Positions 7,055 through 10,000 of a stretch of DNA of 62,966 bases are shown here, piece by piece (positions within the stretch are counted from its first letter, which is position 1; the number at the start of each line of letters is the position of its first letter). Both the position numbers and the translations under genes were made by a program. The notes under the pieces were generated by a model. The model was not told the DNA's origin, did no database searches, and saw nothing but the letters and a program-made list of their open reading frames with translations. The stretch is from a virus. Lineage: Duplodnaviria; Caudoviricetes. The stretch lies in IMG/VR virus record IMGVR_UViG_3300030059_001555, positions 1 through 62,966 of that record; one strand, written 5' to 3'.

Positions 7055-10000
7055 TTATTGATGTGCATAACATTTCTTGTTTTTATTTTCTGTTCTATTT
7101 TTACATCTCTTACCTGAACCAGTTTTAGATTTACATTGGTACTCTTTGATACCATCTTTATCTCTATCACTACCTTCGTTTGGTTTGTAAGCTTTGTGGT
7201 AGGTGCACTTGGCAGACTTTGCATTTGTCTCTACCTGTATGCTACATCTACTACCACTAGATTTAATACCAGAACATCTGACAGTTTTAATACTAGCTTT
7301 TTTCTTTTTACTATCAACCTTTTTTTGTTTCGACTTATCGTTTGAAGTTTTTTTCCTGTCAGCTTTAACTTCAGCCTTAGCATCGACAAGCTCTTGATCT
7401 TCGACACCCACAGACCAAGTACTCCAACCCATTAGTATAGCAGCTCTTTGCCACATATCCATATTACCAGTTAACACTTGTCGTACGTTATTAGCCTTGT
7501 TTATCAACCTAGCTACTGGAGCGTTAGTCACAGCTTCAACTACGTTACCAAAAACACTCCAAGCTGGATTGTTTATACCAGGGCCCATCTTCTTTATTAC
7601 GTCATCGTTATAATCATAAGTCTTAACGGCATTCATAATCTTACGTATCTTAGTTCCAATAGGTGGGGATAAGTTAACTATCTCCTGCACTAATCTACTC
7701 CAGTCTTTTCTACCATAACCTTTAGCACTCTCCTCTCTCCACTTAAGAACAACATTCTTTACGGTGGATACAGCAGCACCATAAACACCAGTACCTCTAA
7801 GTAAAGTATCTAACATTCCGTTTGCTACTCTTATCTCTTTAGTCTGAGTTTTCTCTTCGTCTTCCTCATCACCAAACGCTAGGAAAGCTAACCCAGTTTG
7901 AAGAGATCCAAATATAAAGTTCTGTACCATACCGTAGTAGAGTATCTTAGACACGTTAGCCTTTACGCTACCTCTACCGTTTACTAGATCAGACAAGGCT
8001 TTCTTAGTTAACCTAGTCATCTGCATCGGTGTATTTGCCCATGCAAGTATTATACGACCTAAGGTTCCAGATTGTTGCTGAGAGATGAAGTCTGGTCGTG
8101 AAGACTGTTGAGTCTCCTCTGCGATCTCTTGGAAGTCTAAAAACGCTTGAGTCTCAGCTTCGGCTTTAGACATACCTTCACTTAAGTACTTCTTGAACTT
8201 ATTTCTATAATAAGTGGAACCACCCATCGATATAGCAAAGCTATCTGCAATTTGGGTTGGAGTAAAACCAATCTGCAATAGGTAAGCTATAATAGCTTCT
8301 GGTCTACTCTTTCCTTTAGAGAATGCGTCTGTAAGTTCCGATGCTGATACATCTATCTTCAACCCAGCGCGTCTCTGCTTTAACATATCAGAGTTATATA
8401 TCATTGCGAAATCTGACCAGAATTGCTTTTGATTAGCAAAGGCTTTTGCCGCTGCGAATATATTGTTCTCTTCGAAGTTTAGGAAGTTTACTGTTGATAG
8501 AGTCTGTAGTACAGCTGATCTGGTATTGAAGAACATCACTGCACCAACAGATCCATTTATCCAGTTTAGAAACTTATTAACAACTTTATCTTGACCTGCA
8601 GGGCGGTTAGTACCACTCTCCATTCTAAATAAGATATTCTCTAATGCCTCTCTAAAGTTAGTACCATATATAGCTTCTATCTTATTGAGATTCTCTTTAG
8701 AGAACACCATATTCTTGTTGTCAATCCACTCCGCTAAGTATTGTGATCTGTTAACTTTATTCACTATGTTAGCTAAATCAGATGCTATAGTTTCAGCAAC
8801 CCAAAACTCACTAGGCTTAGTATAACCGTCTACCGACCTAGATATAGCACTCAACGCATTAGCAAAAGCTTCATTAGTTGCATCAGCTTTAACAGCGCTC
8901 CACATAGCGTTGATCTCCTTTTCTGATAAACCAGGGATTTCAAAGCCAGCTTCTTTCCATAAGTAAACTCTAATAGCATTGTCTAACGTGAAGTCAGTAC
9001 CAGCAATTTTTTTGTTTAATCCTTTAATGGTGGTTGGGAAGTTCTTCTTAATAGCTTTGTATTCCTCAGTCATTGTCTGCTTGATAGAATCCATTTCTCT
9101 AATACCCTTAGCAAATGGATCAAACAAATTATTCTTAAACCAAAGCAAGTCAGCCTCACCTTGCTTGCCTTTGCCTAGGAAGGAGTACATTAAACCCTTG
9201 AAGTCTTCAGCTGAAGGTGGTACAAAGAAATTAAATCTACCTTTTTTAGCACCCTTTAGTTTTGCAGCAGCACTTGATATTTCAACGTCAGCCCCAACTC
9301 CTTTAGAGTTCTCAAGCATTTTATTAAAGTCTTGACTAGCTGATTTACTAAACTTAACCTTAGCTTGTACTACTTTAGATTTAATATCTAATTGATCTAG
9401 CACTTGCTTAACAGCATTAACGTTAGGCATAGCATCATCTACAAAGTACATGTCGTTATAACCCTCAGTAAACTTCTGCAGCATCCATTCACCTTTAGCA
9501 GAACCCTCGCTTTTACCTAAACCGGTTACATTTTCTATAGGTATATTTATACCTTGAGACTTTAACCATTCGTGTATTGGGCCAGCAGCATCTTGTTGTC
9601 TAGCAGTTAGTACGAAGATGTTCTTAGCCCCATATTTCCTCACTTGATTCTTCATCTTTTGAAGTAACGGACCTTCTTTTCCTCCGCGAACCTTAGCGAA
9701 GTCTGAGAAATCAAACTCATAGCCTTGAGCTGCTAGAGCTGGACCCTTAATAGGCCACTCTTCACTTCTTATCTTAATTGTTTTACCATCCTTGGTAGCT
9801 ACAACAAAGTTCTTACCACCTATAATTAATGTCTCGTCAAAATCAAATGTTGACATTCCTTTGGACTTAGAGTACTTGACTGAAACAGGTTCATTATCTA
9901 ATGCTTGAAGCTCTACGGCTTTACTATTGTCTACAAATAAATCCTCTATCAATATACTAACCTCGTGGTTAGCTAAAACGTCTATATAAGACTGGTTAGC

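What the first reader, a model, noticed from the sequence alone, without database searches (positions are those of the whole stretch)
7058..7285. Giant virion protein and a small secreted early protein share the same double CCCH finger
Seen: the 2656-aa protein ends with C-SGIKSSGSR-C..C-TY-H and C-KSKTGSGKR-C..C-YA-H. The early 89-aa protein (44849-45118) is a signal peptide plus C-ISTTKKGDR-C..C-WR-H and C-YATTKANAK-C..C-YH-H. Inference: the early gene exports a stand-alone copy of the ejection protein's terminal module, a possible decoy that blocks injection by kin (superinfection exclusion) or occupies the same host target.
Basis: partly seen in the sequence, partly recalled or inferred. 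Interest (0 to 1): 0.75.

Follow-up and report, generated by a model that had tools for sequence, protein, structure and literature searches.

The report
Shared zinc fingers in two phage proteins
A marine flavobacterial phage uses the same type of zinc finger twice, as the conserved tail end of a giant cysteine-free late protein and as a small exported early protein, but the small one is an optional relative and not a copy of the giant's end.

Summary
The 2,656-aa late protein (7055-15025, -) ends in two C-x9-C-x10/12-C-x2-H fingers. The 89-aa protein (44849-45118, +) is a signal peptide plus two such fingers. These are the only four matches in the six-frame translation, against a mean of 0.48 in 200 shuffles.

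Profile-profile comparison links the two modules (96% probability, E about 4e-9; 0 of 31 scrambled controls came near).

The "stand-alone copy / decoy" reading is only partly supported:
- Within each protein the two fingers resemble each other as much as, or more than, any finger of the other protein.
- The small family sits nearer generic DUF5763 fingers.
- A search for shorter proteins carrying the giant-type module found only fragments of giants.
- 106 of 108 giant relatives carry the double finger as their extreme C-terminus. Only 4 of 20 near-complete relatives carry the small gene, which comes and goes as a cassette in the early region.

The finger type (DUF5763 / WRC / Mcm10-like) is elsewhere fused to exported non-specific endonucleases, so nucleic-acid binding is the likeliest activity. 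The giants have almost no cysteine outside the fingers.

My best reading is one DNA-binding finger type deployed twice. A role for the exported protein against superinfecting DNA is plausible but untested.

The parts
7055..15025 (-). Gene for the 2,656-aa giant late protein, inferred to be a virion cargo / polyvalent-type protein
   Evidence: ORF. It lies in the leftward late block that also holds the terminase, portal, structural and muzzle-like genes; further ORFs follow it at 2-6986. It has no PHROG or Pfam family above cut-off. It has 6 Cys in total, all in the fingers.
7058..7285 (-). C-terminal double CCCH finger module (residues 2581-2656); these are the finding's coordinates
   Evidence: Conserved as the extreme C-terminus in 106 of 108 giant relatives.
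7196..7276 (-). Giant finger 1, C-x9-C-x12-C-x2-H
7151..7168 (-). DxDxDG loop between the two fingers (possible calcium site)
   Evidence: In 14 aligned giant C-termini D58, G63, K65 and E66 are invariant, and G56, D60 and D62 are at least 90% conserved. The Excalibur HMM hit is below threshold: 14.8-14.9 bits against 22, with 7 of 14 members at E <= 0.1.
7061..7135 (-). Giant finger 2, C-x9-C-x10-C-x2-H, the most conserved part; it ends one residue before the stop codon
7277..7435 (-). End of the conserved body plus the Lys/Glu-rich linker leading into the fingers
   Evidence: Residues 2540-2580 have 14 K+R, 8 D+E and no Cys.
13229..13243 (-). HExxH motif (residues 595-599), possibly a zincin-type peptidase
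   Evidence: Motif only. No HMM support. There is a weak BLASTP match to the Elemovirus giant in this region, E 9e-4.
9830..9847 (-). DxDxT motif (residues 1727-1732), possibly a HAD-type phosphatase; 8 of 14 scanned relatives carry a Zeta_toxin/AAA_33 kinase domain about 900-1,100 residues from their C-terminus, roughly the same relative place
   Evidence: The DUF2608 hit is below threshold at 19.9 bits against 22.6. 8 of 14 giant relatives have the kinase domain.
44849..45118 (+). Gene for the 89-aa exported double-finger protein
   Evidence: Its ATG overlaps the stop of the upstream ORF (ATGA). It has 22 relatives at 58-100% identity. It sits at the same position in the early cassette of related phages.
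44849..44902 (+). Signal peptide (residues 1-18), predicted cleavage A18|Q19
   Evidence: It fits the Bacteroidetes Q-rule (PMC5837995 and PMC10653852, abstracts seen).
44915..44986 (+). Small-protein finger 1, C-x9-C-x9-C-x2-H
   Evidence: C23, C33, C43 and H46 are invariant in 68 sequences.
45029..45103 (+). Small-protein finger 2, C-x9-C-x10-C-x2-H
   Evidence: C61, C71, C82 and H85 are invariant in 68 sequences.

Best explanation
One zinc-finger type is deployed twice, independently. The finger (C-x9-C-x9-12-C-x2-H) belongs to the DUF5763 / WRC / Mcm10 (zf-primase) group of CCCH fingers, and I infer that it binds zinc and nucleic acid.

(1) The giant protein. It is a multi-domain late protein that is almost free of cysteine and is probably packaged and ejected. 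It has an HExxH motif and a HAD-like motif; many relatives carry a zeta-type kinase domain instead. Two fingers joined by a DxDxDG loop form its invariant extreme C-terminus. I infer that this end clamps DNA, most simply the phage genome. That would couple the cargo protein to packaging or to DNA delivery.

(2) The small protein. This 89-aa product of the early region is exported by Sec, cleaved at A18|Q19, and then consists of little more than two such fingers (pI 9.7). I infer that it binds DNA or another polyanion in the periplasm. The most economical role there is to interfere with, or sense, DNA being injected by a later phage.

The small protein is an optional accessory from a different branch of the finger family. 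It is not a copy of the giant's end.

Shown here: homology of the modules, the conservation pattern, the export signal, the patchy distribution of the small gene, and the fusions to nucleases. Inferred: zinc binding, DNA binding, virion location, and any exclusion role.
For: Homology.

Metal ligands: only the 8 Cys/His columns are invariant across 68 small-family sequences.

Structure:
- With that alignment AlphaFold gives mean pLDDT 86.9, with blocks 21-89 at 90-97.
- The best Foldseek PDB hits are the Mcm10 zinc finger (3h15, 7y01, 3ebe), with 30-31 columns at rmsd 0.9-1.7 A and 17-30% identity.
- The best hit among viral models is the second half of a 'UDP-N-acetylglucosamine kinase [uncultured virus]', E 9.8e-5. 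This is probably giant relative P0070. It is followed by pithovirus HNH endonucleases.

Domain association: of the 42 small-family profile hits of at least 185 aa, 9 are Endonuclease_NS plus fingers and 2 are T5orf172 plus fingers. Bacterial loci from Owenweeksia, a Chitinophagaceae bacterium and Ignavibacteria encode signal-peptide or lipoprotein proteins ending in this finger. One of them looks staphylococcal-nuclease-like by eye.

Pfam leads: zf-primase in 8 of 14 giant ends (best E 1.6e-6) and DUF5763 in 17 of 22 small relatives (best 4e-6).

The WRC finger has the same spacing, binds one zinc with nanomolar affinity, and serves as a DNA-binding domain (bioRxiv 10.1101/2025.01.03.631214, passages seen).

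Giant end: 106 of 108 relatives of 1,464-4,134 aa keep both fingers at the very C-terminus. 77 of 108 have no Cys outside the last 100 residues, a frequency of 0.013% against 0-1.9% in 17 other proteins of this phage.

Accessory status of the small gene:
- 4 of 20 near-complete records carry it.
- Its carriers are scattered on the giant tree, needing at least 4 changes (quick tree).
- Sister records G045 and G033 differ by a three-gene insertion that holds it.
Against: - No call shows zinc binding, DNA binding, export, expression time or virion location.
- Cysteine-zinc sites are unusual in the oxidising periplasm. Six cysteines could instead form three disulfides.
- The Foldseek PDB matches have E 2.8-7 (not significant), and the wider structural search found nothing at Z >= 2.
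- Both window proteins score below the curated Pfam cut-offs: DUF5763 16.7 and 14.4-14.5 bits against 26.3, and zf-primase 16.6-16.8 against 28.8.
- Kinase and phosphatase domains suggest the giant acts in the cytoplasm, while the small protein would be in the periplasm. The two may never meet the same ligand.
- An invariant extreme C-terminus would fit a docking or packaging signal equally well.
- 16 of 20 near-complete relatives do without the small gene.
Confidence: 0.4

Rival explanations
1. The exported small protein occupies the same host envelope target as the giant's C-terminal module and so blocks injection by related phages (superinfection exclusion by mimicry).
For: - The modules are homologous.
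- The small protein carries an export signal and sits among small ORFs at the start of the rightward unit.
- Its patchy, cassette-like distribution is what accessory exclusion genes show.
- Both complete records found through the small gene also have a finger-ended giant.
- The DxDxDG loop and the lack of cysteine in the giant fit passage through an extracytoplasmic space.
- T4 Sp is a known periplasmic protein that counters a virion protein of incoming phage (PMC6832632, passages seen).
Against: - The small protein is not the closest relative of the giant's module and lacks its DxDxDG linker.
- No exported stand-alone form of the giant-type module was found among 111 shorter hits.
- G002's giant keeps one finger while its small protein keeps two.
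- The association with nucleases points to DNA as the ligand and not to a host protein.
Confidence: 0.12
2. The giant's fingers are an assembly signal. The invariant C-terminus docks the cargo protein to the portal, capsid or scaffold for packaging, as the C-terminal region of the N4 virion RNA polymerase is required for encapsidation. The small protein merely shares the fold and does something unrelated.
For: - The last roughly 30 residues are near invariant while the body varies from 1,464 to 4,134 aa and swaps enzyme domains.
- The N4 precedent is described in PMC5512222 (passages seen).
- The small gene is absent from 16 of 20 near-complete relatives.
Against: - The finger type is tied to nucleases and to DNA-binding relatives, not to virion proteins.
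- No structural or co-variation evidence for a virion partner was obtained.
Confidence: 0.2
3. In the periplasm the small protein is a disulfide-bonded basic mini-protein, not a zinc finger. It acts on an envelope component such as a periplasmic nuclease, the cell wall or lipopolysaccharide.
For: - Six cysteines in an exported 71-residue mature protein with pI 9.66.
- Related phages carry several other small exported early proteins.
Against: - Both histidines are invariant together with the six cysteines in 68 sequences.
- The same finger occurs in cytoplasmic contexts: the giant ends, HNH and T5orf172 fusions, and a eukaryotic multi-finger protein.
Confidence: 0.12
4. The resemblance is chance or convergence between cysteine-rich low-complexity tails.
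For: Identity is only 24-26% and is dominated by Cys and His.
Against: - 0 of 31 scrambled controls exceeded score 15, against 47 for the real pair.
- The small-family profile finds the giants' fingers in 23 of the 69 related records, and the giant profile finds the small ORFs in 3 records.
- A structure search with the small-protein model returns a giant-family piece as the best viral hit.
Confidence: 0.02

Closest known systems
DUF5763 (Pfam PF19067)
   Same: Same CCCH spacing and T-x-K-x-G-x-x-C signature. 17 of 22 small-family members match at E <= 0.1 (best 4e-6), and 3 of 22 carry the precomputed label. By my count about 29 of the 42 longer profile hits score over the cut-off.
   Different: Both window proteins fall below the 26.3-bit cut-off. 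The family has no described function, and the word occurs in 0 papers of the searched library.
WRC / HRT-type CCCH finger of plant GRF transcription factors
   Same: The pattern C-X7-WRC-X10-C-X2-H equals C-x9-C-x10-C-x2-H. It binds one zinc, folds only with zinc, and binds DNA (bioRxiv 10.1101/2025.01.03.631214, passages seen). Some relatives hit the WRC HMM.
   Different: It is a plant nuclear protein with a single finger. The W-R-C triad is not kept here.
Mcm10 internal-domain zinc finger / Pfam zf-primase (PF09329)
   Same: It gives the best PDB structural matches, at rmsd 0.9-1.7 A over 30-31 columns. 8 of 14 giant ends hit zf-primase, best E 1.6e-6.
   Different: The matches are short and not significant by E-value, and the window scores 16.6-16.8 bits against a cut-off of 28.8. 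Mcm10's finger works beside an OB fold, which is absent here.
Polyvalent proteins of phages and plasmids, including the N4 virion RNA polymerase (Iyer et al. 2017, PMC5512222)
   Same: Very large multi-domain late-gene proteins with an HExxH peptidase-type motif and swappable enzyme domains, thought to be delivered with the DNA. The N4 C-terminal region is needed for encapsidation (passages seen). The language-model atlas gives LPD38/LPD39 as leads only, at scores 0.94-0.95.
   Different: No LPD or peptidase HMM hit was found here. That paper's main text has 0 occurrences of 'zinc finger', 'Zn-ribbon' or 'zeta toxin', so a terminal CCCH cap is not part of its description.
T4 Sp, Imm and RI (periplasmic or envelope early proteins that deal with secondary phage)
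   Same: These are phage proteins placed in the envelope that block genome entry by later phages or counter an incoming virion protein. RI may act with periplasmic DNA from the secondary phage (PMC6832632, passages seen).
   Different: There is no sequence or fold relation, and none of them shares a domain with a virion protein. The function here is untested.
Exported Endonuclease_NS nucleases with C-terminal DUF5763 fingers
   Same: The same finger sits on signal-peptide proteins of metagenomes and of Bacteroidota and Ignavibacteria genomes.
   Different: They have a catalytic domain. The phage protein has none.

Membership tests
DUF5763 (PF19067) | HMM score at or above the curated 26.3-bit cut-off | tested here: not met
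   The small protein scores 16.7 bits and the giant end 14.4-14.5 bits. Relatives of the small protein reach E 4e-6. I therefore call it DUF5763-like and do not file it as a member.
WRC/HRT-type CCCH finger | Ligand spacing C-x9-C-x10-C-x2-H | tested here: met
   Small finger 2 and giant finger 2 have exactly this spacing. Small finger 1 has x9 and giant finger 1 has x12 in the second gap.
WRC/HRT-type CCCH finger | One zinc per finger and DNA binding | not testable with these tools
   This needs a metal assay and gel shifts. The only evidence here is indirect: invariant CCCH ligands and fusions to nucleases.
zf-primase / Mcm10 finger (PF09329) | HMM score at or above 28.8 bits, or a clear structural match | tested here: inconclusive
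   The window scores 16.6-16.8 bits. The top Foldseek PDB hits have rmsd 0.9-1.7 A over 30-31 columns, but E is 2.8-7. The wider aligner found nothing.
Sec / signal peptidase I substrate following the Bacteroidetes Q-rule | Basic n-region, hydrophobic core, small residues at -1 and -3, Gln at +1 | tested here: met
   The N-terminus reads M-K-R, then an 11-residue hydrophobic core, then G16-L17-A18 | Q19. The pattern is conserved in relatives. Four other proteins of this phage end their signal peptides in A-Q. Actual cleavage was not tested.
Polyvalent proteins (Iyer et al. 2017) | Several effector domains in one polypeptide, often with a zincin HExxH peptidase domain | tested here: inconclusive
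   The window giant shows only HExxH and DxDxT motifs and no HMM hit. 8 of 14 relatives carry Zeta_toxin/AAA_33.
Polyvalent proteins (Iyer et al. 2017) | Packaged in the virion and delivered into the host | not testable with these tools
   The evidence is positional only: late block, with a muzzle-like neighbour. The gene at the same position in Elemovirus is annotated 'structural protein' but is barely similar.
Excalibur / DxDxDG calcium loop | HMM score at or above 22 bits | tested here: not met
   14.8-14.9 bits. The DxDxDG motif itself is present and conserved.
Superinfection exclusion proteins | Expression by the first phage blocks DNA entry of a second phage | not testable with these tools
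   This needs infection assays.

The most novel reading that the evidence does not exclude
The exported double finger is a periplasmic DNA trap. It shares its DNA-binding fold with the trailing end of the giant cargo protein that escorts the genome. It could therefore seize the DNA, or the DNA-escort junction, of a later-arriving related phage as it crosses the periplasm, and so exclude or report superinfection. This would be the first exported zinc-finger exclusion factor, and the first that works by sharing a domain with the incoming phage's own escort protein.
Probability: 0.12. Interest if true: 0.8.

Novelty: new variant of a known kind. Interest (0 to 1): 0.55.

Why it matters
Three points would interest phage biologists.

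- More than a hundred giant late proteins of marine flavobacterial podophages swap their enzyme domains and differ nearly threefold in length. All keep the same roughly 76-residue zinc-finger cap at the very end, and it holds essentially their only cysteines. That marks the cap as the handle by which these cargo proteins are packaged or tied to the genome. It also gives a simple target for truncation experiments.
- Zinc fingers of a DNA-binding type carrying Sec signal peptides form a family of hundreds of small phage proteins and also occur on exported bacterial nucleases. Exported cysteine-zinc fingers are unusual, and their ligand in the periplasm is unknown.
- The small gene is a presence/absence cassette between sister phages. 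That makes a clean natural experiment for testing superinfection exclusion.

Tried and rejected
- tblastn or megablast against 50,697 phage records found nothing for the giant, its conserved C-terminal 569 aa, its finger module or the small protein. The nearest isolates by terminase (Elemovirus, a Manatee Spring podovirus) have giants at the same position without fingers.
- PHROGs has no family for either protein.
- PDB sequence searches gave nothing useful.
- The first AlphaFold run with 22 close sequences failed, with pLDDT 41.5. Only the 68-sequence alignment gave a usable model.
- The wide structural search found no match at Z >= 2.
- Scans with two other small-family members (P0203, P0136) returned only proteins that share the signal peptide and have no fingers.
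- Records found through P0138 were fragments (22% and 72% complete). They hold the small gene but no giant module, so they say nothing either way.
- A search for Bacteroidetes-type promoter motifs found none near the start of the rightward unit, so 'early' rests on position alone.
- Alignment-based scans of bacterial genomes could not be run because no stretch was conserved enough.
- Earlier notes of this scan held nothing for this genome or sequence.
- I did not run a complex prediction, because I do not claim that two named proteins bind.
- Chance resemblance was rejected on the controls.
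Full report
**What the window is.** The window is a 97%-complete virus record of 62,966 bases. Late and structural genes run leftward from about 43,000: GroEL/GroES, terminase, portal, structural proteins, a 2,144-aa protein with a crAss muzzle C-terminal domain, and then the 2,656-aa giant. Small ORFs followed by replication genes run rightward from 43,373. By terminase, the nearest deposited phages infect Flavobacterium, Cellulophaga, Tenacibaculum and Maribacter: 87 records match, the best at 63.6% identity.

**The observation.** It holds exactly.
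- The giant (7055-15025, -) ends in two fingers, C-x9-C-x12-C-x2-H and C-x9-C-x10-C-x2-H. They occupy residues 2584-2610 and 2631-2655, one residue before the stop codon.
- The 89-aa ORF (44849-45118, +) has a hydrophobic N-terminus followed by C-x9-C-x9-C-x2-H and C-x9-C-x10-C-x2-H.
- A six-frame scan finds this pattern four times only, all in these two proteins. In 200 shuffles the mean was 0.48 and the maximum 3.

**Are the modules related?** Yes, at profile level.
- BLASTP alone is modest (E 6e-4).
- The small protein has 22 relatives at 58-100% identity. The giant's last 117 residues retrieve 108 giants of 1,464-4,134 aa.
- hhalign of the two alignments gives 96% probability and E 3.5e-9 to 5.1e-9 over 66-67 collinear columns. 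One reversed and 30 column-shuffled controls never exceeded score 15, against 47 for the real pair.
- The small-family profile picks out the giants' fingers in 23 of the 69 related virus records. The giant profile picks out the small ORFs in the window, G002 and G045.
- A structure search with the small-protein model returns the second half of a giant-family protein as its best viral hit, E 9.8e-5.

**Is the small protein a copy of the giant's end?** The evidence says no.
- Single-finger profiles score 40.4 for giant finger 1 against 2 and 32.2 for small finger 1 against 2. Cross-protein pairs score 23.1-33.6, so there is no first-to-first, second-to-second correspondence.
- The wider small family is closer to all four fingers than the two window proteins are to each other.
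- In a search of 1.84 billion representatives, the small-family profile found 323 proteins at E <= 0.001. The 150 listed are mostly 80-105-aa proteins with a signal peptide and two fingers, and none is a giant.
- The reverse search, for shorter proteins carrying the giant-type module, returned 111 hits. Most lie on short contigs or are clearly parts of larger proteins. The nine I read all begin inside the giant's tail and none has a signal peptide.
- The giant's DxDxDG linker is absent from the small family.

**Conservation of the giant's end.**
- 106 of 108 relatives carry both fingers as the extreme C-terminus; the other 2 carry one. The second finger and the final residues are almost invariant, although the bodies differ nearly threefold in length.
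- 8 of 14 scanned relatives have a Zeta_toxin/AAA_33 kinase domain roughly 900-1,100 residues from the end. The window's giant has a HAD-like DxDxT motif at a similar relative position.
- The window's giant has six cysteines in 2,656 residues, all of them finger ligands.
- Across the 108 relatives, 77 have no cysteine outside the last 100 residues. The frequency there is 0.013%, against 0-1.9% in 17 other proteins of this phage.
- I read the lack of cysteine as a mark of a protein that is stored or threaded unfolded through an oxidising space. That fits an ejected cargo protein, but it is an inference. No call shows that the giant is in the virion.

**The export signal.**
- The N-terminus has a basic start, an 11-residue hydrophobic core and G-L-A | Q.
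- S15, A18 and Q19 are invariant in the close family.
- In 68 wider relatives, 65 have the core and 59 have [AGS]-Q just before the first finger. The profile used to collect them included the signal peptide, which biases this count.
- Gln at +1 is the Bacteroidetes Q-rule (PMC5837995 and PMC10653852, abstracts seen). Four other proteins of this phage end their signal peptides the same way.
- The ATG overlaps the upstream stop codon.

**What the finger is.**
- Across 68 sequences only the eight Cys/His positions are invariant.
- With that alignment AlphaFold gives mean pLDDT 86.9, against 41.5 with the shallow alignment.
- The best solved-structure matches are the Mcm10 zinc finger, at rmsd 0.9-1.7 A over 30-31 columns, but their E-values of 2.8-7 are not significant. 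A wider aligner found nothing.
- Pfam gives sub-threshold hits to DUF5763, zf-primase and, in relatives, WRC, zf-TRM13_CCCH and zf-C3Hc3H. The atlas gives the same families as leads.
- The WRC finger has the same spacing, binds one zinc and binds DNA (bioRxiv 10.1101/2025.01.03.631214, passages seen).
- Domain association is the strongest functional hint. Of 42 longer profile hits, 9 are Endonuclease_NS nucleases with these fingers and 2 are T5orf172 fusions. Several of them have signal peptides.
- Bacterial genomes of the same broad lineage encode signal-peptide or lipoprotein proteins ending in the finger. One looks staphylococcal-nuclease-like by eye.
- Pithovirus HNH endonucleases carry the same fold.
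- I therefore take nucleic-acid binding as the most likely activity, including in exported proteins.

**Distribution of the small gene.**
- 69 IMG/VR contigs encode the giant module. The small gene is in 4 of them (G001, G002, G045, G059). That is 4 of the 20 records at least 90% complete; the other 49 records are fragments and cannot show absence.
- The only independent test in the other direction is small: 2 of 2 complete records found through the small protein have a finger-ended giant, one of them with a single finger.
- Two fragments found through a more distant small protein show no giant module.
- The small gene keeps its place in the early cassette.
- On a quick tree of the giants' conserved region the carriers are scattered, needing at least 4 changes; 56 of 500 shuffles did as well.
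- G062 (99% complete) is sister to carrier G059 and lacks the gene.
- G045 and its sister G033 differ by a three-gene insertion that holds the finger gene and another exported small protein.
- So the small gene is optional and mobile within the cassette.

**Mechanism.** I commit, at about 0.4, to one DNA-binding zinc-finger type used twice. On the giant it forms the trailing cap that ties the cargo protein to DNA, or possibly to a virion partner, for packaging and delivery. As a stand-alone exported protein it binds DNA or another polyanion in the periplasm. The main source of DNA there during infection is a later phage's injection. The T4 precedents are Sp, Imm and RI (PMC6832632, passages seen). 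A pure docking-signal role for the giant's cap is about 0.2, and a disulfide mini-protein reading of the small protein is about 0.12.

**Novelty.** The finger type is known, but I found no description of either deployment. 'DUF5763' occurs in 0 papers of the library. The polyvalent-protein paper's main text has no 'zinc finger' or 'Zn-ribbon'. A search combining superinfection exclusion, signal peptide, zinc finger and phage returned one unrelated paper. Subscription journals and supplements were not searched.

Noticed in passing
window 7055-15025 (-) and 108 relatives (P0024-P0131): The giant proteins almost completely avoid cysteine. The window protein has none in its first 2,583 residues. 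77 of 108 relatives have none outside the last 100 residues, a frequency of 0.013%.
   Followed up: partly
window 19536-25970 (-): A second giant, 2,144 aa, matches the crAss-virus muzzle protein C-terminal domain (31.5 bits against a cut-off of 27) and PHROG 14478 'virion structural protein'. This links the podovirus group to crAss-like tail architecture.
   Followed up: no
window 40316-41881, 40072-40329 and 38148-38735 (-): The phage encodes GroEL, GroES and a second GroES-like protein. Elemovirus and the Manatee Spring relative have them too.
   Followed up: no
window 43100-43200: The divergent intergenic region between the two transcription blocks holds a C-rich tract flanked by TA-rich repeats, in a genome of 36.5% GC.
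   Followed up: no
window 1450-3950 (-): Four consecutive or nearby ORFs (179, 122, 100 and 339 aa) at the left end have signal peptides ending in A-Q, so they are exported proteins of the late block. One matches a PHROG 'lipoprotein' family.
   Followed up: no
L122, L123, L124 and L131 (related virus records): Unrelated small early proteins in related phages share nearly identical signal peptides with members of the finger family. This suggests that signal-peptide modules are reused among exported early genes.
   Followed up: no
P0165, P0188, P0190, P0191, P0216, P0239, P0240, P0252, P0272; L120: Non-specific endonucleases (Endonuclease_NS), several of them with signal peptides, and one protein that looks staphylococcal-nuclease-like by eye carry one to three DUF5763-type fingers.
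   Followed up: partly
L115 and L117 (Owenweeksia genomes): Signal-peptide proteins combine an H-x3-C ... C-x2-C motif with a C-terminal DUF5763-type finger. The label 'Ada-like metal site' is my recollection and was not tested.
   Followed up: no
window 53087-53839 (+): A phage-encoded protein that resembles an RNA polymerase sigma factor (PHROG 351, E 1.1e-21) sits in the replication block.
   Followed up: no
P0026, P0062, P0070 and other giant relatives: 8 of 14 scanned giant relatives carry a Zeta_toxin/AAA_33 kinase domain roughly 900-1,100 residues from the C-terminus. The window's giant has a HAD-like motif at a similar relative position, so this looks like a swappable effector slot.
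   Followed up: partly
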